A DNA stretch of 64,000 nt from Chiloscyllium plagiosum (lineage: Eukaryota), in the NCBI RefSeq assembly GCF_004010195.1, contig NC_057718.1, positions 75,993,843 through 76,057,842 of the forward strand. Direction: 5' to 3'. Every line of letters starts with the position of its first letter. Position 1 is the first letter of the stretch. The notes beneath the pieces were generated by a model. That model was given only the letters and a program-made list of their open reading frames with translations, was not told where the DNA came from and did not search any database. Position numbers and translations under genes: made by a program. Of the stretch, positions 32,893-59,039 are shown piece by piece.

Positions 32893-33545
32893 CCAGATTA
32901 TACTTTATTTGAAAGCACAAGCTTTTGGAGTGCAACCCTTTCATCAGGTGAAGTGAGAGAGAAGCACACAGAACACAGAATTTATGGGTAGAGAAATCAA
33001 AAGATCATACAAATGGTGTGAGTGCAGTGTCAAATAAGTCTCTGCAGATGACCAAGAGAGTGAGACGGTGAGAGTAAAAAAGTGTCAACAGCTAAATAAC
33101 AAGCAAAGGGATGACCTATAAATCCAATTAAATGAAGCAGAAAGATAATAAAAAATTAAAAATAAGGTGGTGCTTGGAGACAAACCAAAATGACTGGAAA
33201 AACATGGAATAAAAACAGAAGCTGCTGGTAAGCCCAGCAGGTCTGGCAGCATCCGTGAAGAAAAACCAGAGGAAGGGTCACCGGACCCGAAATATTAACA
33301 CTGATTTTACTTCACAGATGCCACCAGACTTCCTGTGCCCCACCTCCACCTCCAGCAATCCTTGCCTTTGCTCCTGATTTACAGTCTTCACAGTTCTTTT
33401 GGTTTTTATTTGACTGGAACAACACGATAGGTATAAGAGTTGCATGCTGAGGGTCTAAGCAAAATAATAAGTAATCCAAAACTGTACAAACTAATTGAGG
33501 TAGAGAGATCATAACCACTCAACAAGATAATGGTGTCAAAACAGG
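32893..33545 (-). mobile_element. Penelope-like pseudo-LTR/3' region with a decayed hammerhead (32916-32950), hosting a mini-element
   Basis: Minus strand reads CAC-CTGATGA-A-AGGGTTGCACTCC-AAAAGCTT-GTG, followed by CTTTCAAATAAAG. Helix I CAC/GTG and the AAGCTT palindrome are retained; G12 is changed to A. Confidence 0.65.
33207..33410. mobile_element. Fold-back Penelope-derived mini-element with a 16-bp imperfect TSD
   Basis: Inverted arms (GTCTGGCAGCATCCGTGAAG / CTTCACAGATGCCACCAGAC), central GGGTC-ACCG-GACCC-GAAA, and flanks TGACTGGAAAAACATG (33191-33206) and TGACTGGAACAACACG (33411-33426). Confidence 0.78.
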
Positions 33546-33854
33546 TTCACCTTCCACACACAAACCTTAACATGATTCTTGCTTCAGATTCTGACTAACT
33601 GTGAAATTTAAACAGTTTAGTTCATTATTTCAGAACTTCAGCTCTCAGGACTTTGTTGTTCTTCCCTTTCTCTCTCAAAACTACATGCTTCAGGCTGACT
33701 GTATATCTAAAGTCAGATCACTAACATTTCCTTTAAAGCTCTATTTAAGAACAGACTTTGATAATGAAGAGTTTAAATTACAAAAGAGTTTTTGAATATT
33801 GATTAAAGTGTTGTTAATTATATGCTATCATTCACTACAAAAAGGAGAGAAAAA

Positions 33855-34306
33855 AAAATGTGCATTGATACAGCATTTTTTACAATGGCTGAATGTCTCA
33901 AAACACTTTAGAGCCAATGAAGTACTTTAAGTCTGGACATGGCTATAAATGTTTTAAATGTGGCACAATATGCACACCATGCCATTTGCAAGAGTTCAAT
34001 CTAATAAACAGATAATCTGCTTTTGTATTGTTGACTTGAGGGATAAATGTAATCAGAATACTGGGAATATTTCCCTGCTCTTCTTAAATATTCCATTGAA
34101 ACTAATTTGAAGATGAGCAGGGAATTATTCCTAGTATCCCAAGCAGGCAGATTGGATGCCAGTTTAAAACATGGCCCTGTGGAGCATCCTCTCATACTAC
34201 ATTGGATTATTTGCATTGATCTTTTAAACTAGATTACTGAAGTTGTAACTGAACCTGAAACCTGTAACACGACAGGCAAAATGTATCAAGTGAACCACAA
34301 CTGACC
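33855..34306 (-). mobile_element. Near full-length old DeuSINE (SacSINE1/AmnSINE1-related)
   Basis: CACTTTAGAGCCAATGAAGTACTT tail, Deu-domain-like TTGAGGGATAAAT...TCCCTGCTCTTCTT and a tRNA-like head near 34250-34306. Family assigned from recalled consensus. Confidence 0.62.
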
Positions 34307-34504
34307 AAGTTGTAGAATAGTTATCTAATAGTACAACTGGATCTTGATCAACTGGGCCAATGGGCTGAGGAGCAGCAGATGGAATTCAATTTACATATAT
34401 GTAAGGTGTTGTAATTTGGTAAGATAAACAAAGGCAGCAGTTCTATAGTTAATGGTAAGGTCCTGGGGAGTGTTATTGAACAAAACGGTCCTAGAGATTC
34501 AGGT

Positions 34505-34697
34505 TAGAGTGGTGGTGGAAAAGCACAGCAATTCAGGCAGCATCCGAGGAGCAGGAAAATCGCATTTCGGGCAGAAGGCCTTCATCAGGAATAGATGTCA
34601 ATTTTCCTGCTCCTCGGATGCTGCCTGAACTGTTGTGCTTTTCCAGCACCACTCTAATTTAGATTCTGGTTTCCAGCATCTGCAGTCCTTGTTTTTA
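34505..34697. mobile_element. Fold-back Penelope-derived mini-element with a perfect 15-bp TSD
   Basis: 57-bp inverted arms 34504-34560 and 34601-34657; minus-strand CTGATGA-A-GGCC-TTCT-GCCC-GAAA; TSD CCTAGAGATTCAGGT at 34490-34504 and 34698-34712. Confidence 0.88.
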
Positions 34698-35033
34698 CCT
34701 AGAGATTCAGGTACATAGTTCATTGAAAGTTGTGTTACAGATAGACAGGGTGGTGGAGAAAGCATTTGGCACACTTGCCTTCATTGCTCAGATGATTTGA
34801 CTACAGAAGTTTGGGTATCATGTTGCATTTGTACAGGATGTTGGTGAGGCCATATTTGGATTACTGTGCACAGTTCTGGTCACCATGCTGTAGGAAGATA
34901 TTTTATGAAATTGGAAAGGATGCAGAAAAGATTTACAAGGATGTTATGGGGAATGGAGGGTTTGAGTTATGAGGAGAGGCTGGGTAGACAGAGAAGTTTT
35001 TTCCCTGGAACATAGAAGGTTGAGAGGTGACCA

Positions 35034-35671
35034 TGTTAAACAATTAAATGGGAACCTCTCTCTAGACATTAATGTAATATTGAAGAGTTAAACTGCAACG
35101 ACTAAACATTCTGGAAGTGGATGGGGACGACAGTCAGGTAAGAATGCAAATGACCGCCACTCCATTTAGACAGTCATTTGCTACTACTCCCCCTGCTATT
35201 ATCAAATTAAACTATCATTCAAATCACTTCCATTCAGAAATGTTTTCTAGCCATCCCCTGAAGCTATGTATGTCACATACATTGTCTTGGGAAATCACGG
35301 AGTCAGGAAATATTTTGCATAACATTCCCCAGGATTAGGGCATTAGCATTATCTCGGAGGATGATCTCATCCTACCATCATACTTTGGGGTAACATATGA
35401 CTGTGAGGGAGTAACTGAGGGATTTTCTCAAGTGGCATGTGACCATGGGGAAGTGGCCAGAGTATCTGTAAGCATGGCCAACTGACCTGCATAAAGGAGA
35501 TGTATTTTCTTTGTTCAGAGCCTCACTTTGACTCAACCTCACACACCTGCAAAGAGGGTCAAAGGGGGGTTCACATAGCTTGTACAAGCTTTATTAAACT
35601 TTAACGGTTTGCAGAAGTGGGTGTATGCAAATTGCATCTCATGTGTGAAACCTCAGGAAAAGAACCCAACA
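35034..35671 (+). mobile_element. Probable solo LTR (638 bp)
   Basis: Interrupts a CR1 at GAGGTGACC...CTTACACAGTTTTATAA; TGTT...AACA termini; TATA-like CATAAAG near 35490 and ATTAAA near 35593. Confidence 0.55.
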
Positions 35672-36829
35672 GCCTTACACAGTTTTATAATATCATGAGG
35701 AGCACAGATAAGGTGAATTGCAAAGGTCTTCTCCCCCAGGTCGGGGTGTTTAAAACTAGAGGGTATATTTTTAAGGTAAGCTGAGAGGAGGAAGATTTAA
35801 AAAGGGACCTTAGGAGCAACTCTTGGAAGCGGCAGGGCATCAGCTGTGGTGGTGGCAGTGCCCAGAGCACAGCCTCCTGGCTGCAGTACATCAGGAGCAG
35901 AGGCTCTTGGCAGTGTGTTAGTGGCTGCAGCAGCAGCAGAACCAGGGTCTCCTGGGGCATCAATGTTGTCATTGCTTTATCTGGAACAGGGATTCCTTGA
36001 GGCCTGTAACACCTTGCAAAGGCTCTGAGCCAAGTTTGAAAACCAATTTGACAGAAAGAATTTGATTTAAGTAATTCCTTCTTATTGTTTTTGTAACTCA
36101 AAATAGCATCAGATTGTGATAACACAACACTTTTCACTACATGTGAGACAATGAAATCATTCGTTCATGAAAGGTTTAGAGGGATATGGATTAAACACAG
36201 GCAAAGGGACTAATTTGGTTTGGGAAACCTGATTGGCGTGGACAAGTAAGACCAAATGGTATGTTGCCATGCTGTTTGACTATAATATTAGTATAAAGTT
36301 TTATTTAATCAGAATTACAGTCCTCAGGACCAATATACACTTCAACACAGATTTTACAATATCTGATGACTGAGAACATTACAACGAGACAACAGACAAT
36401 GCATGCCAGACTAAAACTACAGCTCCAGGCTTCAAGGCCATTAACAGCCATAAACATTTTAATAGTCATCAGGAACATACTCACTGTCAGAACTCCACTA
36501 TGCATCTCACCAAAGCTTAATATCCTCTGACAGATAAAGGAATAGTTAAAATAGGGATTTCTTTAAAGTAAAAGGTTGTAGTGTCTGCTGGTTAAGAATT
36601 GGATTGAGAACAATCTGTTACGTATTAGTATTAGGAGTAAGATATTTGCCCAGTTAAACCTGTTCCGACAGCTTCACAAAACCTACTTAAAAAAGGAACT
36701 TGTACAGAAATTACAAAAGAAAGTGAAACAATGAACTGATTCAAAGTGAGTGCCAGTCATAACGCCTTTTAGGCAATGCCAAATTTCACAAAAAACTTCA
36801 GAACTCTGAGTCCATTCAAGTCTCTGCTA

Positions 36830-38050
36830 TAATAAAACAAAAATGCAGATGCTGGAGATCTGAAACAATAACTGATATTGCAGAAACTCTGCTATCTTCC
36901 TGCAGATACTGCCAGATCTGCCGAGTTAATGCTTTGAGTCCTGGAGGGAATAATCTCTGCAGACTCCCTTCTGTAACAGTGGTTTCCTGCCCACTGTGGT
37001 TGACACGGACCTCAACAGCATCCTTTCTTATCATCACCTGCACTTCCACCCTTACCCTTCCCGTCATTCACAACTGTGTGATCGGGATCCCCTTGGCCTC
37101 CCCTTTCACCCACCAGTTCCACATTCAAAGGATCATTCTTAGTCATTTCAAACAAGTCAAGCAGAACACCACCACCAAACAAGTCTTCTCCTCACTCCCC
37201 CTGCTTGCGTTTCACAGGGATCGTTCCCTCCAGGACACCCTAGTCAATTTCTCAACCAACACCACTAATTCCCCATTACCCCTTCCCACAGCACCTTCCC
37301 ATGTAACTGCAGAAGTTGCAACACCTTCCCCTACACCTCCTCCCTGCTCACCATCCAAGGGCCAAAACTGTCTCTCCAAGTGAAGCAGCATTTCACCTGT
37401 ACCTCTACAATCTTCTGTACTGTATTAATTGCACCTAACGTGGCCTACTCTTCATTGGAGAAACTAAACACAGACTGGGTGACAAATTTGCAGAACACCT
37501 CCAGTCTGTGTGGAAACAGAACCCAAACCTTCCCATAGCTGGTCATTTTGACACAGCCCATGTGTCTGTCCTCAGCATGATACAATGCTCTAGTGAATCA
37601 CAACGCAAACTGGAGGAACAACATCTCATCTTCAGACTAGGCACCTGGCTCAATCTTGACTTCAATACCCTCAAATTGTGAACTTCCTCCCATTCCTTCC
37701 CTTTTTGAGCTTTACTAGTTATATTCTCTGTCAGCATGTCCTCTCTCCCCTTCTCACACCACAATGGGACTGTCTGCTCCCTCAAATCTGGCAGTTAGAC
37801 ACACTACTGCTCTACATTCTCACATTCTGATCACAATCTGAATTATCAACATCCTTTCTTCCTCAGCACTCCATACCAACCCCACCCTGACTCACTACAC
37901 CATAAATGCTGTCCTTCTAAACTTCACTGCACCTCTGAAGAAAAGTCATCTAGACCAGAAACACTAGCTTGCTTTCCCTCCAGGGACCCGCTCTGATTGC
38001 CAGCATTTTTTTTCAGTACATATTCCAGCATCTGCTGTAATTTGCTCCCA
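36830..38050 (+). mobile_element. 5'-truncated Penelope-like retroelement (RT C-terminal linker, GIY-YIG endonuclease, pseudo-LTR)
   Basis: HIQRIILSHFKQ...PLLAFHRDRSLQDTLV (ORF 36934-37383), then frameshifted FPCNCRSCN, FTCTS, GLLFIGETKHRLGDKFAEHL and RKLEEQHLIFRLGT. The pLTR has CTGAAGA...GAAAC at 37935-37962, and an inverted pLTR-like segment lies at 36830-36925. Confidence 0.88.
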
Positions 38051-38948
38051 TATTGTTTTTGTTTCAAGTCTCCGATGCTGTACCAATCAGCTTAGTGATG
38101 AATTTAGAGCATGGCAACACTGCCATGGCAATGGGAGGAACATAAGACACAAACCAATGATGTAATTGTTGGTGGGTCTGACATTTCCTTGCTCTAAGTA
38201 AACTGGCTGGCAGACATGCAAAGATCTGCAATCAAAGAGTACCCAAAGAAAAAAATATGTGGGATGCAAGAATAATAGGGTGGTTATGGAAGGGGATTTT
38301 AACTTTCAAAACGTAGACTGGGACTGGCATAGTTTTAAGGAGAGGAATTTATTAAGTGTATACAAGAAAATTTTCTGATTAATACGTGGATGTACCTACG
38401 AGAGAAGGTGCAAAACTTGAACTACTCTTGGGAAATGTGGCAGTGCAGCTGACTGAGGTGTCAGTGGGGGAACACTTTGGGGACAGCAACCATAATTCTA
38501 TTAGTTTTAGAATAGTGGTGGAAAAGGACATACCAGATCTCAAAAGTTGAAGCTCTAAATTGGAGGAAGGCTAATTTTAACAGTAATAGGCAAGAACTTT
38601 CAAAAGCTGATCAGGAGCAGATATTCACAGGTAAAGGGACGGCTGGAAAAAGGGAAGTCTTCCGAAATGAGATAACGAGAGTCCAGAGACAGTATATTCC
38701 TGTTAGGGTGAAAGGAAAGGCTGGTAGGTATAGGGACTACTGGATGATTAAAGAAATCGATAGTTTGGTTAAGGAAAAGAAGGAAGAAATGTAAGGTAGA
38801 GACAAGATAGATCGAGTGAATCCTTAGAAGAGTATAAAGGCAGTAGGAGTATATTTAAGAGGGAAATCAGGAGGGCAAAAAGGGGTCATGAGATAGCTTT
38901 GGCAAATAGGGTTAAGGAAAATCCAAAGGGTTTTTACAAATACATTAA

Positions 38949-39275
38949 GGGGCAGCACAGTGGCTCAGTGGTTAGCACTGCTGCCTCACAGCACCAGGAT
39001 CCCAGGTTAGATTCCAGCCTCGGGCAACTGTCTGTGTGGAGTTTGCACATTCTCACCGTGTCTACGTGGGTTTCCTCCAGGTGCTCTGGTTTCCTCCCAC
39101 AGTCCAAAGATGTGCAGGTTAGGTGAATTGGCCATGTTAAATTGCCCATAGTGTTAGGTGCATGAGTCAGGGGTAAATGTAGGGAAATGGGTCTGGGTGG
39201 GTTGCTCTTCAGAGGGTCGGTGTGGACTTGTTGGGCCAAATGGCCCGTTTCCACACTGTAGGGAATCTAACCTAA
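38949..39275 (+). mobile_element. HE1 V-SINE
   Basis: GGGGCAGCACAGTGGCTCAGTGGTTAGC head, V-domain, tail CCACACTGTAGGGAATCTAACCTAA. Confidence 0.92.
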
Positions 39276-40848
39276 AAGAATAAGTAGGGAGAGAATAGTG
39301 CCCCTCAAAAATCAGCAAGGCAGCCTTTGTGTGGAGCCGCAGAAAATGGGAGAAGATACCAAACTAGTATTTTGCATCAGTATTTACTGTGGAAAAGCAT
39401 ATGGAAGATACACACTGTAAGGATATAGATGGTAACATCTTGCAAAATGTCCATATTATAGAGGAGGAAGTGCTGGATGTCTTGAAACACACGAAAGTCG
39501 ATAAATCCCCAGGACCTAATCAGGTGTACCCTCGAACTCTGTGGGAAGCTAGAGAAGTGATTGCTGGCCCTCTTACTGAGATATTTGTAATATCGATAGT
39601 CACAGGTAAGGTGCCAGAAGACTGGAGGTTGGCTAACGTGTTGCCACTGTTTAAGAAAGGTAGTAAAGGACAAGCCAGGGAAATATAGACCAGTGAGCCT
39701 GATGTCAGTGGTGGGAAAGTTGTTGCTGGGAATCCTGATGGACAGGATGTACATGTATTTGTAAAGGCAAGGACTGATTAGGGATAGTCAACGTGGCTTT
39801 GTATGTGGAAAATCATGTCTCACAAACTTGATTGAGTTTTCTGAAGTAACAAAAAAGATTGATGAGGACAGAGAGGTGGACGTGATCTATATGGACTTCA
39901 ATAATGCTTTCGACAAGGTTCCCCATGGGAGACTTATTAGCAAGGTTAGATCTCATGGAATACAGGTAGAACTAGCCATGTGGATACAGAACTGGCTCAA
40001 AGGTAGAAGACAGAGGGTGGTGGTGGAGGGTTGTTTTTCAGACTGGAGGCTTGTTACCAGTGGAGTGCCACAAGGATCGGTGCTGGGCCCACTACTTTCA
40101 TCATTAACTAAATTATTTGGATGTGAGCATAATAAGTATAGTTGGTAAAATTGGACATCAAAATTGGAAGTATAGTGGACAGCAAAGGAGATTACCTCAG
40201 ATTACAGTAGGATCTTGATCAGATAGCCCAATAGGCTGAGACTTGGCAGATGGAGTTTAATTTAGATAAGTGCTAGGTGCTGCATTTTGGGAAAGCAAAT
40301 CTTAGCAGGACCTATACACTGAATGGTAAGGTCCGAGGGAGTGTTGCTGAACAAAGAGACCTTGGAGTGCAGGTTCATAGCTCCTTGAAAGTGAAGTCGC
40401 AGGTAGATAGGATAGTGAAGGCGGCATTTGGTATGCTTTCTTTATTGGTCAGAGTATTCAGTACAGGAGTTGGGAGGTCATACTGTGGCTATGCAGGACA
40501 TTGGTTAGACCACTGTTGGAATATTGTGTGCAATTCTGGTCTCCTTCCTATCAGAAGGATGTTCTGAAACTTGAAAGAGTTCAGAAAAGGTTTACAAGGA
40601 TGTTGCCAGAGTTCGAGGATTTGAACGAAAGGGAGTGGTTGAGTATGGGGCTGTTTTCCCTGGAGCATCGGAGGCTGAGGGGTGACCTTCTAGAGGTTTA
40701 GAAAATCATGAGGGGCATGGATAGGGTAAACAGACAAAGTCTTTTCCCTGGGGCGGGGGAGTCCAGAACTAGAGGGCATAGGTTTAGGGTGAGAGGGGAA
40801 AGATATAAAGAGAGACCTAAGGGGCAACTTTTTCACACAAGAGGATTG

Positions 40849-41164
40849 TAGATTACATTACTTAGTGTGGAAACAGACCCTTCGGCCCAACAAGTCCACA
40901 CCAACCCTCCGAAAAGCAACCCACCCAGACCCATTCCCCTACATTTACCCTTTCACCTAACACTACTAGCAATTTAGCATGGCCAATTCAACTAACCTGC
41001 ACATTTTTGGACTGTGGGAGGAAACCAGAGCACCCGGAGGAAACCCACACAGACACGGGGAGAATGTGCAAACTCCACACAGTCAGTCGCCTGAGATGGG
41101 AATTGAACCTGGGTCTCTGGCACTGAGAGGCAGCAGTGCTATCCATTGTGCCACTGTGCTGCCC
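40849..41164 (-). mobile_element. HE1 V-SINE (one unit of a head-to-tail pair)
   Basis: Complete head, V-domain and tail; ends at GCTGCCC 41164. Confidence 0.9.
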
Positions 41165-41451
41165 CTATTCTCTACAGTGTGGAAACAGGCCCTTCGGCCC
41201 AATAAGTCCACACCGCCCCTCCGAAGAGAAACCCACCCAAACCCATTACCCTATATTTACCCTAACACACCTAACACTGTGGGCAGTTTAGCACGGCTAA
41301 TTCACCTGACCTGCACATTTGGGAGGAAACCGGAGGAAACCCACGCAGACACAGGGAGAATGTGCAAACTCCACACAGACAGGCAGGAATTGAACCCAGG
41401 ACCCTGGTGCTATGAGTCGGCAGTGCTAACCACTGAGCCACCGTGCTGCCC
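41165..41451 (-). mobile_element. HE1 V-SINE (other unit of the pair, with small internal deletions)
   Basis: Head ends GCTGCCC at 41451, after which the CR1 resumes (TGGTACATGTATGG). Confidence 0.9.
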
Positions 41452-42759
41452 TGGTACATGTATGGAATGAGTTGCCAAAGGAAGTTGTGGAGGCTAGTAC
41501 AATTGCAACATTTAAAAAGGCATCTGGATGGGTATATAAATAGGATGGGTTTGGATGGATATGGGCCAGATGGGGTTGGGATATCTAGTTTGCATGAATG
41601 GGTTGGACCGAAAGGTCTGTTTCCGCGCTGTACAGCTCTGACTCTATATAAAATGAAAAGCTGAAGGGAGAAACCCAACAGACCACAATGCCAGTTAAAA
41701 ATGAAACAAAATACATTACAAAACAGAGGCCTAGTAACATGACCAGAGAAGATGGCACTTGTTCAATGATATCAGTCTGCTCCAGTTAGCATCAGCTCTT
41801 TCCCTGTCGACCTGATATTTAGTTTACAGAAACTGAATTACCACGGGACCAATTTATTCAAGTAACTGTTTTATTTTTAAAAAGTGCAAGAAAGGCAAGA
41901 TGAAATGCGTCTGTTATTCAAATTTGAATGTAACATTGCAGAATATTGTCAATGAATTTAACAGTGCTGAAGCTTTATATATTTTTTGAAAAAAAGCAAG
42001 CTGTTCAAAGGATTAAACAAAAAAGGATAGGTGGAGATCCCCAGAGTTTCTTTTATACACAAGAAGCAGTGATCAACAACAGAAGACTTCTTTGTATTTG
42101 TTTTCTGGCAAATTCAGCATTTATTATCCACCCCCAAAAGTCCTTCTTGAACTGTTGCAGTCCATCTCAACGAGATGTATTCAAAAAGGTGTTGGGAAGG
42201 AATTCCATTTTTCTTGACCAGTGACAATAAGTCACAAAATAATCCCAAGTCAGAATCACACGTGGCTTAGAGGGGAGCTTCCAGATGCAAAGGAGCTTGT
42301 AAGTGGCACACAATACTGTCATGGTAGCAAAAGGCAGTCAATGGTAGCCAGGGTGATCATCAAGCAGGTTGATCTTATCTTGGATGGTGTGATACCTTTT
42401 GATTGTTGGTAAAGTCACACCCAGCTAGTCAAGTATAGATTACTCCACCACATTCATGATCTTTGTATTATGAATGGAGGAAAGGCTCTGGGGAGTCAGG
42501 AAGCAAGTTATTCATCAGATAGTACCCAGCTTCTGATGAGCTCATGTAGTCAGTGTTTGTATGGCAGGTACACAAAAGTCTGTCAATGATGACCCCTAGG
42601 ATGCTGATGACAAGGGATTCACAATCATAATCCTGGTGAATGTGGGCTATGGGAAGTGCAGACAATGTCACACTTGGTGAACATTTTGTCTTAGGAGGAT
42701 AAGTTGGCCAAGCCATCTTGTACCTTGACTGATATATAAAAGATCTGAAAATGGTCTCA

Positions 42760-43010
42760 ACAAGGTGGACGTGGAAAGATGTTTCCTTTTGTGGGAGAGA
42801 TTTAAGAGGCTTTGGAACTCTTCACTTCAGAAGGCCAAAAGCAGATCATTGAACATTTTTAAGACAGAAATAGATGTATTGTTAGGGAAGGGAGTCAAGG
42901 GTTAATTGGAGTTAATAAAAATGTAGAATTCAAGTTACAAATCAACAGATCAGCCATTATCTGATTGAATAGCAGGCCAGGTTACAGGGACCAAACCCTA
43001 CTTCTGCTCC
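42760..43010 (+). mobile_element. Old CR1 3' end
   Basis: GGTGGACGTGGAAAGATGTTTCC...CAGATCAGCCATTATCTGATTGAATAG...CCTACTTCTGCTCC. Confidence 0.65.
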
Positions 43011-44089: not shown

Positions 44090-44589
44090 NNNNNNNNNNN
44101 NNNNNNNNNNNNNNNNNNNNNNNNNNNNNNNNNNNNNNNNNNNNNNNNNNNNNNNNNNNNNNNNNNNNNNNNNNNNNNNNNNNNNNNNNNNNNNNNNNNN
44201 NNNNNNNNNNNNNNNNNNNNNNNNNNNNNNNNNNNNNNNNNNNNNNNNNNNNNNNNNNNNNNNNNNNNNNNNNNNNNNNNNNNNNNNNNNNNNNNNNNNN
44301 NNNNNNNNNNNNNNNNNNNNNNNNNNNNNNNNNNNNNNNNNNNNNNNNNNNNNNNNNNNNNNNNNNNNNNNNNNNNNNNNNNNNNNNNNNNNNNNNNNNN
44401 NNNNNNNNNNNNNNNNNNNNNNNNNNNNNNNNNNNNNNNNNNNNNNNNNNNNNNNNNNNNNNNNNNNNNNNNNNNNNNNNNNNNNNNNNNNNNNNNNNNN
44501 NNNNNNNNNNNNNNNNNNNNNNNNNNNNNNNNNNNNNNNNNNNNNNNNNNNNNNNNNNNNNNNNNNNNNNNNNNNNNNNNNNNNNNNNN
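44090..44589. other. Assembly gap (500 N)
   Basis: Run of exactly 500 N. Confidence 1.
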
Positions 44590-48689: not shown

Positions 48690-49990
48690 CATAAAATCAT
48701 GAGAAAGGAGCAGAATTTACCCATTGAGTCCCCTCCATTTGATTATGACTGAAATGTTTCTCAACTCCCTTCTCCTGCTCTCTCTCCATAATCCTTGGTC
48801 CCCTTACTAATCAAGAACCTGTCAATGTTTGTCTTAAAGATGCTCAATGACTTGGCAATGCGTTCCATAGATTCATCACTCTGCCTCAAGAAATTTCTCA
48901 TCTCAGTTCTACAGAGTCATCCCTTCACAGAAGCTGTGCTCTCAGGTGCTAGTCTCTCCTAATAGTCAGTCCTGATATAACGCATTAGTTCCATTCTTCT
49001 GTGATTTCACGTTAAGAAAATTGTGCAATAGCCACACCATTTAAATTAATGAGGCTGGAATCGCATTGTAGCCAATACAGGTAAGGAAAGTTTGCACTGT
49101 GCAATAACAGTCTGAAATCTGCAATCATATTAAAGCCAATTCTCATTGAAGTACACATTATAGCAAAGCAAACTGTAATGAAAACATCTTCTCCAAGTTC
49201 ACTCTATCCAGGCCTCTCAGTATTCAGTAAGTTTCAATGAGATCCCCCACATCCTTCTAAATTTCATCAAATACAGACCCAGAATCCTCAACCACAAGCC
49301 CTTAATTCCCAGGATCATCCTTGTGAACCTCCTCTCAATCCCCTCCAATGCCAACACTTCCTTCCTTAGGTACAGGGCCAAAAGCTCCTCACAATATTCC
49401 AAATGTGGTCTGACCAGAGCCTTTTACAACCACAGCAGTACACATCCCTACTCTTATATTCAAGCAGTTTTGAAATGCATGTTAACATTGCATTTGCCTT
49501 CCTAACTGCCAACTGAATCTGCATGCTAACCGTAAAAGAATCCTGAACTAGGACTCAATTCCACTGTGCTTTAGATTTCCAAAACCTTTTTCCCCATTTA
49601 GAAAATACGCCTTTATTCTTTCTATCAAAGTGCATAACCTCAAACTTTCCCATATTGTATTCCATTTACCACTTTGTCCATTTACTCATGTCTAATTCTT
49701 CCTGCAGCCCCCCAGCTTCTTCAAAACTAAATTACCCCTCCACCTGTCTATATGTCATCTGCCTCCTTTGCAGCACCTTGTCAAAGAACTTCTGGAGATC
49801 CAAATAGATCACATTCACTGGCTCTCCTTTGTCTAACTTACTAATTATCTCTGAAAGAATTCTACCAGATAGGTCAGGTATGACTTCCCCTTGACAAAGC
49901 TGTGCTGACCTAGTCCCATTTTGCCATGCACTTCCAAGTACTCCATAATCTCATCCTTAATAATGAACTCTAAAATCTTACCAATATTAA
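48690..49990 (-). mobile_element. CR1 3' portion interrupted by a MITE
   Basis: ORFs 49217-49402 (LALEGIERRFTRMI) and 49845-50063 (GKILEFIIKDEI...QHSFVKGKS); same subfamily as 30195-32310. Confidence 0.83.
48963..49175. mobile_element. Tc1/mariner (Tigger/pogo-like) MITE, 213 bp
   Basis: Imperfect terminal inverted repeats TAGTCAGTCCTGATATAACGC / ACATTATAGCAAAGCAAACTG followed by TA. It interrupts the CR1 phrase TCTCTCCTA...TGAAAACATC, which is uninterrupted near 30470. Confidence 0.65.
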
Positions 49991-50734
49991 GAAAAGGTGG
50001 CTGTAGAAAGTAAGGGTCAGGGTCTAAGAGAGAAGAATTCATTTGGTACTGGCTTGCCTTCATTTAAGTATATCGCAAGAGTCTTGTACAATTCAGTTCA
50101 CAATTCACCATACAGAACTGTAAAAGAGGAAAATGAATCTAGTTTCCTTCATTGATACCCTGCATCTTTAGCTACAAAAAAATTGAATACGTACATCTAA
50201 AGTGGTCATATTTTAGATGCAAAAAAAAAAACTCTAGAAAAATTTAAAATCTTAATTCAACTATTTTGAGAGACTTGGTTCAGTTGTAGAAATTTTGTCA
50301 GATTAAGACACCCTCCCAGAAACCTAAACATATAAAGTGCCACTTCAGTGAAGTGCTAAGGGAGCCCTGGACACACTGAGCTGCTGACTTGTGGATAAGA
50401 GTTCCAGCAGCTCTCATGAGGCAGTCAGTACTAGAAATGGAACTGAACATTTACACAGGATATGGAGTTGGGAATTCAAACCAAGGTCAAGCAAGAGACT
50501 GGAGGTTACAAATAGTTTGGGTGAATCTGAAACGCCAAAATAGCGTTTGAGACAGGATCCAAAAGACAATAGCTCACTTTCCAAAACATTTAAGGGGAGG
50601 AAGCTATAGTTCAAAGATTGGCTTCACAGGCACAGACTGACAGCACAGAAATAGTAGTGGAGAGGTTGAGTTGGCAACCGAATGGAAACTGGCCTCGTGT
50701 GTAGACAACATCACTAAGTGGCAGTGTGCAACAT

Positions 50735-52760
50735 TTAAATTCAATTCCTTTCACAGTAAATGATAACCTTCCTAATTATTTGCTGTACCTGCACACTCAC
50801 CTTTTGCAGTTCATGAATTGGAACACCCAGAGCCCCTCCAATCTCAGTTCTGAAACCACTCATCTTTTAGATTCTTTTTCATTCTTCCTTCCAAACGAAA
50901 CAATTGCACACTTTCCCACTGGATACTCCATTTGCTACATTTTTGCTCACTCAATCTAATTATATCCCGAAACAACCTTCTGCCAGCTTCACAACTCACT
51001 ACTCATCTTTGTGCCATCAGCAAACTTAGCAACTGCACCCTCCCCTCTCCATCATACAAATCACATAGCAAGTGTGAAAAGGTTGTGATGCCAGCACTGA
51101 TCCCTATGGCATGCCACTTGTTACACCTTGCTAATCAGAAAATGACCCATTTGTATATACTGTTTTCTGTTAGCTTGCCAATCTCCTAATCATGCCAATA
51201 TGTTAGTCCCAAAACCATCAGTTTTAATTTTAACACATGGGACATTCACTGGTATTCCTTTGTCCACAGAACACACAACTTCTTCAAAGAATTCCAATAG
51301 ATTGAATAAACACAATTTCCCTTCAAAATAATCAGCTGAAATTATTTTGTGAACTTTTCCAAACAGCCTGCTATAACTGCTTTGATAACAGTTTTTAACA
51401 ACTTCCCAGTGGCATTTGAAATATTTAGCCTGTTGATTTCTGTTTTCTGTGTCCCTCCCTTTCTGACCAAAAGGAGATACATTCACTATTTTTCAATCTA
51501 ACGTAACATTCCATGATTTAAGGTATGTTGGAAAACTAATCACATCAACTATTTCACTAGTCACTTCTTTTGGGATCCTAGAATAAAATTCACCAGGATC
51601 CAGGTTCTTTGCTGCCTGCAGCAATGATTTGCTCAATACTACTTCCTTGGTGATTGCAACTGTCCTGAATTCCTCCCTTCCACCCATTTCTTGATTTACA
51701 GCTATTTCTGTTACTAGTATCTTTTATAGTGAAGACTGATGAAATGAACCTTTTCAAATTGTCTACCATTTTTCCTTATTAATTACCCAGACTCCTTCCA
51801 TAAGACAAAGATTCATTTTGTTAACTACTTTTTAAAAAAATATCTAAGAAACTGTGACAATCTGCTTTAATATTTATTGCCAGCTTTCTTACACTCTTTT
51901 TCCTTATCAATCCTTTCTTTATTGTTCTTTATATTCTGTCCAATCTTCTGCCCCACCCCTCTGCACAAAATGTGTTCCCCTCCACTCCCACCATTAATAC
52001 TATTGTTAGCGGTTCTAATTAGATAGTCGTTCCACCCATTGGATTTTTTTCTTCTGTTTGAAATGCATCTATTTCAGAATAGACAAAATATCCCCTTAAT
52101 GTTTGCCACTCTACATCTATTGACAAACCCATCAATTTGCAAGTTCACTTTTGCAAGCTGTGCTTTCATATGCTCATATTGCTCTTATCTAAAATTTAAA
52201 ACATTAGCCATGGACCCATATTTCTCTCCTTTAAATTGAATCTACAACTCATTCATACTATGGTCACTGCTACCTCGGGGTGCATTCATTGTAACATTAA
52301 TTGATCCTATCTTATTGTACAAACTAGGTTCATGAATGTGAGACTTCTGGTCAGCTCAACAAATGTGCTGTCCTAAGAAACTAACCTGAAGACATTCTAT
52401 GAGCTCATCTAGGTTATTATTCCCCATTCGATTTTTCCTGGGTTGTTTGGAGCTAAACTCCCTCATTTTATCCTTCTGACAGATTTCCATTTGTCTTCCT
52501 TTATACTCTGCTTGACCATATAGTGACTGTCAGTTGGTCTTCTTGCTTTTATTATTTCAACTCTATCCAAAAATTGTTTCTACAGCCTGGCTTAATGAAC
52601 TTAGCACAGCCAGCTATACTGCGCTAATTAACAGTGCCACATCTCCACATTTCCAATTTCCTGACCTTCCTAAACATCATGGACACTTCAATATTCACGT
52701 CTCAGTCTGTGTCATTCTGCAGCCATGTCTTTATAATGACTATCAAACGATTCTTTGTTG
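50735..52760 (-). mobile_element. Old CR1 LINE fragment
   Basis: ORFs 51190-51486 (GKLCLFNLLEFFEEVVCSVDKG) and 51493-51687 (LDPGEFYSRIPKEVTSEIVD). Confidence 0.72.
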
Positions 52761-52764
52761 AAAT

Positions 52765-53550
52765 ATTCTGGAGGCCAGTCAAGAGAGTGCAACAGAATAG
52801 TTAAGTCGAAAAGGTAGCAGATTAAGGTGTCAGCAGATGAGCTGAGGCAAAATAAGGGAGATAGAAATAGGCAGTCTTCGGGACAGCACAACTATGTGGT
52901 CAAGTGCTCATTTCAGGCTCCATGAAGATACCAGGTAGGAAACACAGTATCTGACTTTTAACCTTAGGCATTTACAAGGGAGAGAGATGGCATCAGTTGC
53001 TAGGGAATTTAGGTCAAGGCCCTAAGCCAATAGCTCAAGTCTTCTCGATATTTATATCAGAGAAATCTTTGATCATCATGTTCTAAAAATATTAGATCAG
53101 CAGTCTAATAAATTAAGCAACAGTAGAAGTGATGTGGTGTGTTAGAACCAGGTGTCGTTGGTGAGAGGGTTAGAGTGAATATACATGTGAAAATTAATGC
53201 TTTGTTTTCAGATGATATTGATAAAAGAACAGTATGTTGGTAAGAAATAGGTGGGATGAAGAATAGTTCGTTAGGAAACAGAGGTTTAACAGTGTAGGTG
53301 TGGAAAGGGAAGCTATTGCAAGTGATATTTTGGTTATGAATAGGTAGATAAGAATGGAGTCCCATCCAGGTGAACAGGAAAATGACTGGAGGACAATTGT
53401 GCAGTCAACCATGTGAAAATGTTGTAGGTCAAGTAAGTAAAAGGAGAGATCGCCTACCTTTGTTGAAGTCACATTGGAATTTGTGTCTTTGATCAGAGTT
53501 ATTACAGTCATGTAGTAGGACTGGAAAACCGATTAAATGTATTCAGACCT
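52765..53550 (-). mobile_element. Old L2-type LINE RT fragment
   Basis: Minus-strand peptide remnants (LLDLQHFHMVDCTIVLQ...HSYL...QNITCNSFPFH) resemble L2 RT; heavily decayed. Confidence 0.5.
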
Positions 53551-54196
53551 GACGATTGGTCAGTAAAAGGTTGTCTACATTTCTACAACCTTAGGTGAGA
53601 AGTTTACATGACATAAAACAAACCAGAACAATTCACATTTTCTGTCCTGACAAATTGTCTGACAAAGTTTCGACCAATCCCTCTGCAATCAAAATATGCT
53701 CCGCCACTCCTTCATTACCAGTCTCATCAAATGTTCTTCAACTTTTCAGAACTGACCTGTCTCCACAAAACATTTTAAAAATGTTACCATATACCCTGTA
53801 GAATCCATGCTATTTCAGTAAAGGTCATTGTGACTTTATAGTTACTACAACAGTAGTCAAAGCAAATTTCTATGGCTGACACCTTCTTGATCAATTGCAA
53901 TTGTTATACACCCAGGCATACGGATATGAAATACCAGTATGTACTATTGTATTTTATTAAGGTCTCGTTTCAGAAATCGGCATTTACCACAGATTTAAAA
54001 TCCTGCAGGCAATTTAAGATTGACACATTTGTTTGACATGGGGCACAGAGATAAAGAAACTGCTGCACTCTATTTTCTGGGAAAATAAAAGAATTTTCCA
54101 TTTGACATTGTCAGTGATAGCATTAAAGTATTAAGTATTCTCAGGGCACAATGAGCGTGTGTTAAAACTTCTGTTGCTCTCCTAATCATCTTAAAT

Positions 54197-54455
54197 GGAA
54201 GAATTTGTATTTGCATAATACCTTATTAAGTACTGAAAGAGATCTCAAAGCTCTTTGTAGCTAATAAGTTATGTCTGAAGTGCAGTCTTTGTTGCTATTT
54301 ATACACAAAGATAGCAGCCATTTTGCACACAGCAAGATCCAATATGATAACTCATCAGATTTGGTTGTAATAGTTTGAGAGAAAGAGGACGACTTTGGGA
54401 GATTTCCCTGCTCTTCTTTAAACAGTGCCACAGGTTAATCTACATCGACCCAAGC
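54197..54455 (-). mobile_element. DeuSINE (SacSINE1-like) 3' half
   Basis: GAAGTGCAGTC...AGCAGCCATTTTGCACACAGCAAGATCC...TCCCTGCTCTTCTTTAAACAGTGCCA. Confidence 0.65.
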
Positions 54456-54459
54456 ACTA

Positions 54460-54582
54460 AATAAAAACTGGAAGAACTGCGGATGCTGTAAATCAGATAC
54501 AAAAACAGAAGTTGCTGGAAAAGCTCAGCAGCTCGACCAGGATCGGTGAAGAAAAATCAGTGTTAAATGTTTCAGGTCTAGT
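54460..54582 (-). mobile_element. Single-arm Penelope pseudo-LTR fragment
   Basis: GAACTGCGGATGCTGTAAATCAG...AAAAACAGAAGTTGCTGGAAAAGCTCAGCAG; same family as 33207-33410. Confidence 0.7.
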
Positions 54583-54967
54583 CAAAAGTAGGAGGCCTAG
54601 CAATTTTAAGGTGACTTACAATGACTAAATCACAAATTTTCTTTTTAAATAAAAGTTTAATATCCAATTATCAACAAACAGAATAAGTATTAAACTGTGA
54701 AATTCCTTGATAGGACTACAAACTCGATACATTTCACGGAAGTGTTTTAACCATACCAGAGTGTTGCACAATCAAGGCGTCTTATTTCAAGATGAATATT
54801 GACTAATGAAACTGGAAATTTACAATCATGTATAAAAACAATGACAAAAGTGTTACTATTCAGTCAATGATTGTGATCAATATAACGTCAATTCCGTCCT
54901 TTTAGCCAAGTCACTTGTATAACAGGGATTTACAGACGTTATAAAGATTTGGCCAAAACCTACGTGT

Positions 54968-55150
54968 CAGAAATTGCTGGCGAAACTCAGATCTGGCAGC
55001 ATCTGTGGGAAGAAAGCAGAGTTAACATTGAGTCCAGTGGCTCCTTATCCAAGTGCTCTTAAGAGTCACCAAACTCAAAATGTTAACTTATTCTTCTCAC
55101 AGGTGCTGCTAGACTTGGTGATTTTTACCAGCAATTCCTGTTTTATTGTT
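54968..55150. mobile_element. Decayed fold-back Penelope-derived mini-element
   Basis: AATTGCTGG...GCAGCATCTGTGGGAAGAA...GTTAACATTGAGT is inverted against ACTCAAAATGTTAAC...TTCTTCTCACAGGTGCTGC...CCAGCAATT. Confidence 0.7.
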
Positions 55151-55575
55151 TTTCTATAATTTACACGATGCAGCTGTTAAATGTGGGTTGAATTATGAAA
55201 GAAAAATATTCTCCATCAACACTTTTCAAAATTTGTTGCTTTGCAAGTCAACAAATATTTAAAAAGTACCTGTGCAATTATCCTCTGCCCATCTTCCAAA
55301 ACTTACTGCTGACTAAATTTATACTCATTGCAAGGCTCCCATTGGTAAAAACCTACAGTTGAATTAAAGTGAAACATTCTTGCCTTTTCCCAGTGGCATA
55401 CATTGCATGTAATTTGTTTCCCACTATGAATTTCTGTTCTTGAAAACAGAAGTATGGCATAGCTCAGGCAAAGTTGCAATTTTAAAAACAAATTTACAGT
55501 GAAGCATATCAATTCAGCAGAGAAAATTGTTATTTAATACTTAACTTTGATTAATTTTGACGACTGTGGGTTCGC

Positions 55576-55662
55576 AGGCGAGAGTGTGGTGCTGGAAAAG
55601 CACAGCAGGTCACGCAGTATCAGAGGAGCATCGACGTTTTGGGCATAAGCCCTTCAACAGGA
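55576..55662 (-). mobile_element. Single-arm hammerhead mini-element with an 11-bp direct-repeat flank
   Basis: Minus strand CATC-CTGTTGA-A-GGGC-TTAT-GCCC-AAAAC-GTC-GATG; flanks TGTGGGTTCGC (55565-55575) and TGTGGGTTCAC (55663-55673). Confidence 0.75.
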
Positions 55663-57494
55663 TGTGGGTTCACGTCAATTGTACCTCACCGATTGCAAAG
55701 CACTTTGTGATGTCTAGTGGTTATGAAAATTGCTCTATTAATGCAAATATTTCTTTCAGTGTACTAAACTGTTCCACAAAGAAATTTCCCAAGTTCAGCA
55801 CTCCACTGAGCAACATTTTGAATATAAAATTCATTACAAAAGCTGTTAGAGCATATTTGCCTCCAACTCAGAGTACAACAAAATAGGAAAGACATTTAGA
55901 CCATGATTCTGCTCAAAAATCTTTCATATTCAGCCTCTCAAAATTAAACACAAAAAGAATTATTCACAAACAAAACTATCAAATTTCAAATTACTTCCTG
56001 TAGTGGCAGTCTAGAGAGAAAAAACATTGCAAAAATACATAACTTCATCAAACACTTGGCAAACAAAACATCAACTAATTGGACTTCCTTGCTTGTTCAG
56101 TATCCATTTTCACATGTATGCTACTTGAGGTGAAAAAGAATAAGCAGAAAATAACCTACAAAATTACTTAAACATATATACAGAAGGGAAACAAATGTAT
56201 CAAGGTCTTGCAACTATTTCTACAAAATATTTGGTACAAAAATTTTTCAGAATCTGAAAAGCAAATAAATCTCTTCTGCTTCCAACGTGTCTGCATCCCT
56301 AATTATAGGAAGTCAACCATGCCATTTTCCTCCAACGCTGCTCCACTATTATCCACTTGAACAGGACTACAAGCACCTGGCTCCATTTTCATATACACAG
56401 TCACAACCAGAGAATCTCTTCCTACTGGCTCGAATATCTGAAGTGTCCCTCAAAGATCCATCCTTGGACACTCATTAATTCTTATCGACACATTGATCTT
56501 CAGCAACATTAGCCAAAACTACTTCAATTTCCACAAGTGTACTGATACATCCTCACTGCCAACTCCCTCCGATCCTCCCCGCCTTGTAATTTGCCATATT
56601 GCTTATCTAATATCCATTACTGGAAAAGCCGAAATTTTATCCACTGTTACAAATTTGAGACTTGCACAAGACAATGGTTTTAAAATGTTTAATTAATGGG
56701 GAAATAGAATGCTCTGGAGAAGGGAGATTGTGATCCTATTAGCTCTGCTTGGATACAGGTCCTTTTGACTGAATTATCATAGGGAAAAGGGGCCCAAGCA
56801 GAAACTTTGAAACAGAAATAAGGACAATTGCTTTTTGTGCAGAAAGAATTCATTGGCTTGGAGAAACAGAAGCAACTAAAGTGTAGGCTTAACTGTTTTG
56901 GTGTTTGAAAGTCTGTAAAATTTGATTCTTTATTTGAGTAGAAGGAAACAAAATTGACAGTACCTTTGAGATGCATGAAAGACTGAGCAGCTGAGACAGA
57001 CTCGTTGGTAGAAACCTATGCTGGTATACTCCGATTGATTGGAATGAATGTGGAAGGACAGCAAATGAATCAATCATTCTGGTAGACCAGGCAGAACTGA
57101 GCCTTCTTTTTGTATCACTACTGATTGACCAGAGACGGATAAAGAAATTTCTGTGGTATGTTTCAATTGTGCTAACTGGACTTGAAAGTACCTGTCCTTG
57201 TACAATGTATGCGTTGACAGATAAATGCTCACTTTATCTTAATTTGTTTTGCTTTGTTGGTTACCATATTAGGGAAATTGTGTCATCTCACAATGATTTC
57301 AGATTTCTGAGAAATACATATTTTTGAAAAAGTTACTAGCCTCAATGGGGATCTTAACATGATTAAATATTGGAGAGACCAAAGCCATTGCATTTAGCAT
57401 GCAAAAACTCCATTCCTTTACCTGGCAATGGTCTCAGATTATGACACTTAGGAACAATGATACACAAGGAATTTCTGACCACATATCCTTTTTT

Positions 57495-58620
57495 ATTCAT
57501 TCGTGGGATGTGGATGACGCTTGCCAGCATTCATTGCTCATTCCTAGTTGCTGTTGAGAAGGTAGTGTTGAGTTGCCTATCTGAACCGCTGCAGTCCAGA
57601 TGCTGTGGGTTGCCATACTATGCTTTTAGGGAGAGTTTTCCAGGATTTTTAACCAGCAGCAATGGTAAAATGGTAATGTAGCTCCAAGTCAAGATAGTGA
57701 ATGGCTTGGAGAGGAACCTGCAGGTTGTGGTGTTCCCATGTGTCTGCTGCCCTTGTTCTTGAAAAAAATGGTCATGGGTTTGGAAAGTGCTGTCTGGGGA
57801 TCTTTGGTGAATTTCTGCAATGTATTTTTTGGATAGTACACATTCCTGTGACTGAGCGTCAGTGGTGAAGGGAGTAGATGGTTGTCAATGCCAATCAAGC
57901 AGGATGTTTTGTCCTGGATGGTGTCAAGCTTCTTCATTGTTGTTGGGGCTGCACTCATCCAAGCATGTGGAGAGTATTCCATCACACTCCCGACTTGAGC
58001 TTTACAGCTTTACAGGCTTTGTGGAGTTAGAAAGTGAAAGTGAGTTACTCACTGCAGTATTCCTAGATTTTAGTCGGAAACATCATTGAATGTCATGGGG
58101 TGGTGGTTAAATGGTCTCTTTTTGGTGATGGTCACTGCCTGGCATTTGTATGGCATAAATGTTACTTGCCAATTGTCCACCCAAGCCTGGATATTGTCTC
58201 GATCTTGTTGTGTTTAGACTGCGTAGAACAGACTGCTTCAGTATCTCAGGAGTTGGCAAACATTCCCACTTCTGATCTTATGATGGAGGTGGTCATTGAT
58301 GAAGCAACTGAAGATGCTTGGGCATAGGATACTACCCTGAGGACCACCTGCAGAGATGTCCTTAAGCTGAGATCTCCAACAACCAAGACCATCTTCCTAT
58401 GTGTCAGTTATGACTCCAACCAGCAGACAGCTTGCCCCTTATTCCCATCGATTCCCGTTTTGCTTGGGGTCCTTGTTGCCAAATGAAGCCCGACGCCAAG
58501 GGCTGTCAAACTCACTTCACCTCTGGAATTCAGCTGTTTTGTCCATGTCTAAACCAAGTCTAAAATAGAGGACCGGAATATAGGCCCTAGCGGAACTCAA
58601 ACTGGGCATCACTGGATACT
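57495..58620 (-). mobile_element. Second-lineage CR1-group LINE, 3' portion
   Basis: ORF 57689-57985 (MEYSPHAWMSAAPTTMKKLDTIQDK); homologous to 7300-8360. Confidence 0.8.
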
Positions 58621-58814
58621 AAACTAGCCTAAGCTCAACAACTGATGAAATCTTCCTGGTTCCTGGAGAGAGGAGAGTATTCCAGTAATCTCCCACTTCC
58701 TATAGTCTGTAAGCTTGAGGTCAGCCAAACCGCCACAATCATTGTTACAGCTCAAGTTCTATTCACCCAACACAACTATACTTGCTGAAGTAATGTGTGT
58801 CCTAGTTAAGTAGG

Positions 58815-59019
58815 AAATGTGTTGCTGGAAAAGCGCAGGTCAGGCAGCATCCAGGGAACAGGAGAATCGACGTTTCGGGCATAAGCCCTTCTTCAGGAAT
58901 CAGGGCTTATGCCCGAAACATCGATTCTCCTGTTCCCTGGATGCTGCCTGACCTGCTGCACTTTTCCAGCAACACATTTCCAGCTCTGATCTCCAGCATC
59001 TGCAGACCTCACTTTCTCC
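58815..59019. mobile_element. Young fold-back Penelope-derived mini-element with a perfect 15-bp TSD
   Basis: Inverted arms of about 77-80 bp (58813-58889 / 58902-58981); TSD TCCTAGTTAAGTAGG at 58800-58814 and 59020-59034. Confidence 0.92.
58864..58901 (-). ncRNA. Minimal type I hammerhead ribozyme motif with an intact core
   Basis: GAUUC-CUGAAGA-A-GGGC-UUAU-GCCC-GAAAC-GUC^-GAUUC: helix I (4 pairs plus U.U), CUGANGA, 4-bp helix II, GAAA, palindromic ACGU in place of helix III, and a GUC cleavage triplet. Confidence 0.75.
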
Positions 59020-59039
59020 TCCTAGTTAAGTAGGGCCTC

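What the first reader, a model, noticed from the sequence alone, without database searches (positions are those of the whole stretch)
33191..59034. Family of non-coding fold-back hammerhead mini-retroelements derived from Penelope pseudo-LTRs
Seen: six related 90-210 bp inserts (33207, 34505, 54460, 54968, 55576, 58815) share GCTGG..AA..CAGCAG..GCAGCATC arms. Four fold back on themselves around a hammerhead-like centre, and four carry 11-16 bp direct repeats. Their ends resemble the 3' pLTR of the GIY-YIG Penelope at 36830-38050 (TTCCAGCATCTGC). Known: Penelope-like elements carry minimal hammerheads in their pLTRs and make inverted 5'-truncated pLTR ends with long TSDs. Inference: these are either extreme truncation products or a SINE/retrozyme-like non-autonomous class that uses the ribozyme for RNA end formation and is mobilised by Penelope RT in trans. 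They are easily mislabelled as MITEs.
Basis: partly seen in the sequence, partly recalled or inferred. Interest (0 to 1): 0.8.

Follow-up and report, generated by a model that had tools for sequence, protein, structure and literature searches.

The report
Fold-back stubs of shark Penelope retroelements
These short hairpin-shaped insertions are real, but they are abortive copies of the front end of a Penelope-like jumping gene rather than a separate family, and their very regular end points hint at how such elements copy one RNA from both sides of a DNA cut.

Summary
The six inserts are real: four fold back, four have 9-15 bp flanking repeats. They are ends (pLTRs) of GIY-YIG Penelope-like elements with a Neptune/Nematis-type linker, from at least three families; the Penelope at 36825-38062 is a relative, not their parent. 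The 58815 family has 19,238 exact tail copies. Of 84 position-ordered copies, 57 fold back, with 42 different junctions; only 56 copies genome-wide share 58815's centre. So there is no master element, and ends avoid the ribozyme cut site (4 of 141). Breakpoints are not random either: 53 of 84 stop within 5 nt of one base just before the hammerhead, which is also where copies carrying the ORF start begin, and an extra G is enriched there. Best reading: two cDNAs, primed at both target nicks from the two known 'tail' start sites, run off the capped 5' end of the element's mRNA and are joined. The inverted-pLTR-plus-tail layout is published, and this scan noted such inserts twice before in this genome; the stop-point, extra-G and RNA-reuse evidence was not found in seven literature searches.

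The parts
58815..59019 (+). Young fold-back insert: inverted tail-less arm 58815-58900 (element positions about +89 to +1), one extra base C at 58901, direct arm 58902-59019 (+12 to +129, with tail)
   Evidence: numbering: +1 = the A five bases before the hammerhead's UGA, in real copy L090
58864..58900 (-). Complete minimal type I hammerhead motif (CUGAAGA, extra A, 4-bp stem II, GAAAC-GUC); predicted cut between 58869 and 58868. Activity not tested
   Evidence: layout as in PMC4209133
58800..58814 (+). Target-site duplication, left copy (15 bp; right copy 59020-59034)
34505..34697 (+). Fold-back insert of a sister subfamily, inside a decayed LINE-like repeat: inverted arm ends at +1 (34592), direct arm from about +30 (34597) to the tail; hammerhead cut site broken
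34490..34504 (+). Target-site duplication, left copy (15 bp; right copy 34698-34712)
33205..33410 (+). Older-family fold-back: inverted arm about 33208-33271, direct arm 33269-33410 starting at the first base of a degenerate hammerhead core; 14-bp repeat with 1 mismatch at 33191 and 33411
54458..54582 (-). Older-family single 5'-truncated copy with tail, stopping inside hammerhead stem II; no TSD found
54968..55143 (.). Older-family fold-back; no TSD found, right boundary uncertain
55577..55662 (-). Single tail-less arm running to about +2/+3; 9-bp exact flanking repeat (55565, 55663); core broken
36825..38062 (+). 5'-truncated, decayed Penelope-like copy of a different family: linker/endonuclease remnants 37123-37678, degenerate hammerhead near 37935, short inverted tail-like piece at its left end, 10-bp flanking repeat (36815, 38063)
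   Evidence: tblastn to P0004 and P0007, E 2e-26 and 8e-22

Best explanation
The inserts are by-products of normal target-primed reverse transcription by an endonuclease-bearing Penelope-like element, made anew at each insertion. Shown: they are pure pLTR sequence of a GIY-YIG element; the pLTR lies both after the endonuclease and in front of the ORF start; copies end at two 3' sites about 35 nt apart; short copies stop at one 5' position (+1). Inferred: the protein cuts the target with a 13-17 nt stagger and primes cDNA at both nicks, one at the distal site (+129 to +135, with tail), one at the proximal site (about +95). When it starts on the pLTR at the front of the mRNA, only 95-135 nt of template lie upstream, so both cDNAs run off the RNA's 5' end at +1, and the two ends are trimmed and joined, mostly through the short self-complementary words of hammerhead stem II. 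One cDNA alone gives the simple 120-135 bp stubs; jumps back onto the RNA give short partial tandems. +1 is most likely the capped transcription start (about 0.6 for this step). The hammerhead is a passenger of the pLTR here, not the cutter of these ends.
For: Parent linkage: L054 and 30 further loci join a GIY-YIG domain (Pfam PF01541, 23.6 bits, cut-off 22.6) to the same pLTR; the tail runs on into an ORF whose start aligns with residue 1 of a 909-aa RT-endonuclease protein (E 2e-13). Two 3' ends: of 30 endonuclease-bearing copies 15 end at +89..+103, 11 at +128/129, 4 earlier; inverted arms start at +86..+106 in 51 of 57. This matches the two initiation sites and both-strand extension shown in vitro for an Anolis element (PMC11167929). 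De novo origin: 42 junction classes in 57 fold-backs; each of the three commonest classes occurs on two haplotypes with both arms agreeing; 56 copies share the 58815 centre. Two cDNAs: in 26 of 57 the tail-less arm reaches 5 nt or more further 5' than the tail-bearing arm, the reverse in 11, equal in 20; one self-primed cDNA cannot give the 26. Stop point: 53 of 84 at -5..+5, 5 of 84 beyond -5; 12,131 sites with a non-parent base before +1 against 1,114, about nine in ten of them point changes, at a control site 84 nt downstream; depth in an independent contig set drops about threefold at +1. Copies bearing the ORF start also mostly begin there (32 of 46 multi-unit inserts have no unit past -10). 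Extra G: first 100 rows G58 A27 T15 (hand count) against G8 at the control; G versus A p 8e-7; untemplated junction bases end in G in 12 of 23. An extra G marks cap copying in L1 (PMC11702581, PMC2912911). RNA reuse: units of one insertion share an unusual upstream 5' end in 5 of 43 inserts, 0.4 expected.
Against: No RNA 5' end was seen: the one read lay showed no pile-up of molecule starts (polyA single-cell library, about 2% of the run, so a weak test). The G excess is not significant in the sister subfamily to which 34505 is closest (G13, A10 among first 100 rows, p 0.11). At jumps from the ORF back to +1 the base before +1 is usually the parent's C, not G, and many copies reach -2..-6, so the RNA end is spread over several bases. 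Part of the G rows are explained by the opposite arm (10 templated G). Only 11 of 50 sites examined had a resolvable TSD, of which 5 showed an untemplated G-ending junction, 2 an A-ending one and 4 none. About half of all sites (53 of first 100 rows, hand count) run 12 nt or more past +1, so the tail-anchored sample overstates the share of stubs. No intact full-length source element was recovered, and the RT was not placed on a tree. Three inserts (L264, L267, L269) repeat an identical internal junction, which suggests some rearranged copies or circles were themselves templates.
Confidence: 0.72

Rival explanations
1. Same origin as insertion by-products, but the fold-back comes from one cDNA (or RNA) that folds and primes itself, as proposed for rotifer Penelopes, and the stop at +1 is a stall of the RT at the hammerhead's 5' edge or at bound protein, not an RNA end. 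Later flips of the centre between the arms blur the order.
For: Junctions sit in short palindromes; 20 of 57 have both arms ending within 4 nt; arms share 24 variant sites, 3 of them private to one copy; +1 is also the 5' edge of hammerhead stem I; self-priming was inferred from junction palindromes in PMC3846280.
Against: 26 of 57 have the tail-less arm reaching further, against 11 the other way; simple stubs without an inverted arm stop at the same place (12 of 27 at -5..+5); a stall does not predict the extra G or shared unusual ends within one insertion.
Confidence: 0.15
2. An independent non-autonomous family (SINE- or retrozyme-like): short pLTR-only or fold-back RNAs are transcribed from mini-elements, processed by the hammerhead, and copied in trans by the Penelope protein.
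For: Very high copy number; 47 of 84 copies keep an intact minimal core; a stub starting at +1 might keep an internal promoter (TSS lies in the pLTR of D. virilis Penelope, PMC8557442 section 10); non-autonomous pLTR derivatives and retrozymes from PLEs are published (PMC8557442; 10.64898/2026.07.22.740005); three inserts repeat an identical internal junction.
Against: No dominant junction; 4 of 141 ends at the cut site; tails often run on into ORF-start sequence, which a stub lacks; same layout with long arms; window inserts are not tandem arrays.
Confidence: 0.1
3. MITEs of a DNA transposon.
For: Short, non-coding, long inverted repeats.
Against: TSDs are 12-19 bp, mode 14, 65 of 65 different; the inverted repeat leaves a 35-nt tail unpaired; the sequence is continuous with a retroelement's endonuclease and ORF.
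Confidence: 0.02

Closest known systems
Insertion units of canonical endonuclease-positive Penelope-like elements: 5' truncation, partial tandems, adjacent inverted 5'-truncated pLTR, optional 30-40 bp tail (PMC8557442, PMC3846280)
   Same: Inverted arm next to a direct pLTR, tail on one end only, TSD, minimal hammerhead in the pLTR, initiator-like motif in the pLTR, CX2-5CxxC linker and C-terminal GIY-YIG in the parent.
   Different: Here the insert is often nothing but the pLTR ends (80-346 bp), in tens of thousands of copies, with 13-17 bp TSDs (8-10 bp in the rotifer examples read) and a single-position 5' stop.
Poseidon of Anolis carolinensis, in vitro (PMC11167929)
   Same: Two RT start sites flanking the tail at the pLTR-ORF junction; both target strands cut and extended; hammerhead cleavage not needed for insertion.
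   Different: Other clade; there the ORF begins inside the hammerhead, here about 165 nt after +1; that work did not address inverted arms or the 5' stop in the parts read.
L1 twin priming and cap-derived extra G (PMC11702581, PMC2912911)
   Same: Two cDNAs from opposite nicks, inverted 5' segment, discrete 12-18 bp TSD, extra G at true RNA 5' ends.
   Different: In L1 the two segments are adjacent parts of the RNA; here both cDNAs copy the same stretch, giving a hairpin.
Non-LTR retrozymes (10.64898/2026.07.22.740005)
   Same: Non-coding, type I hammerhead, derived from PLE pLTRs.
   Different: Retrozymes are head-to-tail arrays of complete units; these are head-to-head or single, and their ends are not at the cut site.

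Membership tests
EN+ Penelope-like element (Neptune/Nematis type), truncated copies | C-terminal GIY-YIG endonuclease upstream of the same pLTR | tested here: met
   (for the 58815 family; not tested for the older 33207/54460/54968 family)
EN+ Penelope-like element (Neptune/Nematis type), truncated copies | CX2-5CxxC linker before the endonuclease | tested here: met
   CX4CxxC in L066, L078, L085, L088; definition from PMC8557442
EN+ Penelope-like element (Neptune/Nematis type), truncated copies | RT domain grouping with Neptune rather than Nematis | not tested
   no RT core recovered, no tree; homologues carry PF00078
EN+ Penelope-like element (Neptune/Nematis type), truncated copies | pLTR also in front of the ORF start | tested here: met
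   contiguous endonuclease-pLTR-ORF start in L263
EN+ Penelope-like element (Neptune/Nematis type), truncated copies | Inverted truncated pLTR, one-sided 30-40 bp tail, TSD | tested here: met
   57 of 84 inverted; 52 of 57 with TSD of 12 bp or more
EN+ Penelope-like element (Neptune/Nematis type), truncated copies | Intact full-length autonomous copy | tested here: inconclusive
   none among 90 loci of about 3 kb found with ORF-start or endonuclease queries; the assembly has N gaps beside many copies
Minimal PLE hammerhead | CUGANGA, extra base before stem II, GAAA, no stem III loop, NUH site | tested here: met
   58815 minus strand; 47 of 84 genome copies; not met in the other five window inserts
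Minimal PLE hammerhead | Self-cleavage (as dimer or protein-assisted) | not testable with these tools
   monomer does not fold into the active shape, as expected for this class
Non-LTR retrozyme | Two or more tandem units each with a complete hammerhead | tested here: not met
   none of the six window inserts; short partial tandems exist elsewhere but include ORF sequence
Non-LTR retrozyme | Unit ends set by ribozyme cleavage; circular RNA | tested here: not met
   4 of 141 ends at +32..+35; circular RNA itself not testable
SINE | Uniform master-derived structure with a tRNA/5S/7SL head | tested here: not met
   42 junction classes in 57; inserts align wholly to pLTR; no such Rfam match
MITE | Terminal inverted repeats at both ends and TA/2-9 bp TSD | tested here: not met

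The most novel reading that the evidence does not exclude
This genome holds a record, tens of thousands of events deep, of the unresolved Penelope insertion reaction: a protein dimer primes two cDNAs at the two tail sites on one capped sense mRNA, reads the same RNA two or three times, and because the start sites lie within 135 nt of the cap, most tail-bearing products are pLTR-only hairpins. That would explain inverted pLTRs, one-sided tails and partial tandems by one rule (run off the 5' end, then join or jump), in place of antisense self-priming. At the bold end, some short tandems or circles made this way are re-copied, which would be the birth stage of retrozymes.
Probability: 0.4. Interest if true: 0.72.

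Novelty: new member of a known kind. Interest (0 to 1): 0.45.

Why it matters
As an element it is ordinary: a known Penelope insertion layout at its shortest, easily mislabelled as MITE or miRNA hairpin. Its value is mechanistic. How Penelope-like elements make tandem and inverted ends is stated as undefined in PMC8557442, and the in vitro work leaves the later steps open. Here the ends can be counted in bulk and give exact predictions (transcription start base, two start sites, both cDNAs from one RNA) that 5'-end sequencing and an in vitro assay can test. The hairpins are also a large potential source of double-stranded RNA in shark transcripts (inference).

Tried and rejected
One search (whole 58815 insert as query) returned 30 loci, nearly all with the same centre, which looked like a uniform family; rejected as ascertainment bias after one search showed common words are skipped, one search gave varied centres and one search counted only 56. 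One search (3' 70 bp) returned nothing for that technical reason. Ribozyme cleavage as the source of ends: rejected. A second NUH just before +1 was considered and dropped, because it cannot pair with the core (reasoning only). The window's Penelope as parent: rejected. Rfam: no hammerhead family matched. No RNA holder on record was listed for the ORF-start stretch. Read lay: X20 laid nothing; X19 gave 2,025 reads on both strands, 91% running on into unlike sequence, depth 1-2 over the ORF start, no start pile-ups, which fits read-through of scattered copies and says nothing on the source mRNA. Searches for an intact source element found none. The shared-5'-end count was first 8 of 46; three inserts with duplicated junctions were removed and it was redone as 5 of 43. 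Six of 90 tail-anchored copies were dropped for N gaps. The 20 extra loci were picked by eye from rows 31-100 as looking flank-joined.
Full report
Observation. The six inserts exist at the stated places and cross-match. Four fold back significantly against 200 shuffles each. Flanking repeats are 15 bp exact (34505, 58815), 14 bp with one mismatch (33207) and 9 bp exact (55576, weak against the null); none was found for 54460 and 54968. Only 58815 keeps a complete minimal hammerhead, on the minus strand. They belong to at least three related families: 58815 (94-97% to young copies), 34505/55576 (about 80%), and 33207/54460/54968 (older; relatives L065, L227). The host is a 3.56-Gb genome; the closest named protein to the ORF start is from Hemiscyllium ocellatum at 92%, so a carpet-shark relative is likely; the species was not determined.

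The parent. Following the 58815 family, a 646-bp copy (L054) joins the same 3' end to a GIY-YIG domain; 3,595 candidates carry that region. Upstream lies a CX4CxxC linker, the mark of Neptune and Nematis clades (PMC8557442). Downstream, the tail continues into an ORF whose first residues align with residue 1 onward of a 909-aa RT-endonuclease protein. L263 holds endonuclease, pLTR, tail and ORF start in one piece. No intact full copy was found. The Penelope at 36825-38062 is a decayed member of another family (44% amino-acid identity over 57 residues, 63% DNA over 105 bases).

Population. An exact 36-mer of the tail occurs 19,238 times, reversed control 0. I took the first 90 listed places on contig C1, a sample blind to the centre, and dropped 6 for N gaps. 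Positions are counted from +1, the A just before the hammerhead core. Of 84, 57 have an inverted arm; 52 of these have a TSD of 12 bp or more (mode 14). The inverted arm starts at +86..+106 in 51 of 57 and lacks the tail; the direct arm ends at +129 or a few bases on. Long endonuclease-bearing copies show the same two 3' ends (15 and 11 of 30) and inverted arms up to 700 bp. So the short inserts are one end of a continuum.

No master element. The 57 fold-backs fall into 42 junction classes, the largest with 7. Each of the three commonest occurs on two haplotypes with both arms agreeing. The exact centre of 58815 occurs 56 times genome-wide. Of 141 5' ends, 4 lie at the ribozyme cut site and 68 at -2..+5.

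A sharp stop. The furthest 5' reach is -5..+5 in 53 of 84, and beyond -5 in 5. Genome-wide, 12,131 of 47,726 sites have a non-parent base before +1, against 1,114 at a control site of the same local context, where about nine in ten of the first 100 rows are point changes (the control's total was not counted). Contig depth in an independent data set falls about threefold at +1, with loose ends and one- or two-base inserts beginning with C on the antisense strand there (that run's kind is not on record and it may be the assembly's own source). Copies that carry the ORF start also begin at +1, and many are two or three units that each restart there. A caution: 53 of the first 100 rows run at least 12 nt past +1 (hand count), and in 200 kb of random sequence 5 of 19 units did, so long-type copies are common in subfamilies or forms that my tail anchor under-samples.

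Why there. The base before +1 is G in 58, A in 27, T in 15 of the first 100 non-C rows (hand count; background G 21%), against 8 G at the control. Some G's are templated by the other arm; among junction bases not explained by element sequence, 12 of 23 end in G. TSD-resolved cases are few. In L1 an extra G marks a copied cap (PMC11702581, PMC2912911). The context fits the initiator consensus YYANWYY (recalled, from no call), but it is also hammerhead stem I, so its conservation proves nothing. Against: the sister subfamily shows G13 to A10, not significant, and ORF-to-+1 jumps mostly show the parent's C. A second line points to an RNA end, not random fall-off: units of one insertion share an unusual upstream end in 5 of 43 inserts, 0.4 expected, p 5e-5, though a minor end near -45 may contribute.

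One cDNA or two. A cDNA that starts at the tail and folds back can only copy what it already holds, so its arm must reach furthest. The tail-less arm reaches further in 26 of 57, the tail arm in 11, equal in 20. Two cDNAs from opposite nicks explain all three classes, and agree with the in vitro finding that a PLE protein cuts and extends both strands and starts at two sites flanking the tail (PMC11167929). Later inversion of the centre could mimic this but should not favour one direction.

Comparison. The layout is the published PLE pattern (PMC8557442, PMC3846280), and pairs of minimal hammerheads 100-700 bp apart on opposite strands were noted in PMC4209133. Seven searches of the open library showed no paper on shark PLE stubs, a cap-derived G in PLEs or twin priming in PLEs; subscription papers are not covered. 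What I saw: PMC4209133 and PMC11167929, parts 1-2 of 4; 10.64898/2026.07.22.740005, part 1 of 5 and passages; PMC8557442, passages and section 10; PMC3846280, PMC2912911, PMC11702581, PMC3681739, passages; no supplements. Two earlier notes of this scan on other parts of this genome call such inserts ordinary truncated PLE ends; my reading was set down before seeing them, and a second look-up on the stop point returned nothing.

Verdict. Real, a known kind, not an independent family. The interest lies in the end statistics, which make the open question of how PLE inverted and tandem ends form directly testable. Interest 0.45.

Noticed in passing
window 11377 and 14168 (+): Two further hammerhead-like motifs of a different layout (longer stem II); 11377 resembles a motif in L134, possibly another Penelope clade.
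   Followed up: no
window 34061-34134: A 74-nt hairpin unrelated to the six inserts (sub-threshold miRNA match); a similar word lies near 54395-54425. Probably an old SINE domain (recalled, untested).
   Followed up: no
window 44090-44589: 500-base assembly gap; N gaps also abut many fold-back copies elsewhere, so their share may be underestimated.
   Followed up: partly
L264, L267, L269: Multi-unit inserts in which an identical ORF-to-pLTR junction is repeated (in L267 in both orientations), suggesting a rearranged copy or a circular RNA served as template.
   Followed up: partly
L262, L266, L270, L271: Several units begin at -40..-47, just upstream of a pyrimidine tract and AG that look like a splice acceptor; a possible second RNA 5' end.
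   Followed up: no
P0001, P0003, P0006: Shark and ray gene models named mucin-2-like, prostatic acid phosphatase-like and divergent protein kinase contain this element's ORF pieces; likely annotation of retroelement sequence.
   Followed up: no
window 1210-2657, 38941-41451, 59848-60337: Abundant SINE- and CR1/L2-like repeats; 34505 sits inside one of the LINE-like remnants.
   Followed up: no
tail-anchored loci: TSDs start with C or T in 50 of 65 and end in G in 25 of 65, matching the element's ends; suggests priming by short target-RNA pairing at both nicks.
   Followed up: partly
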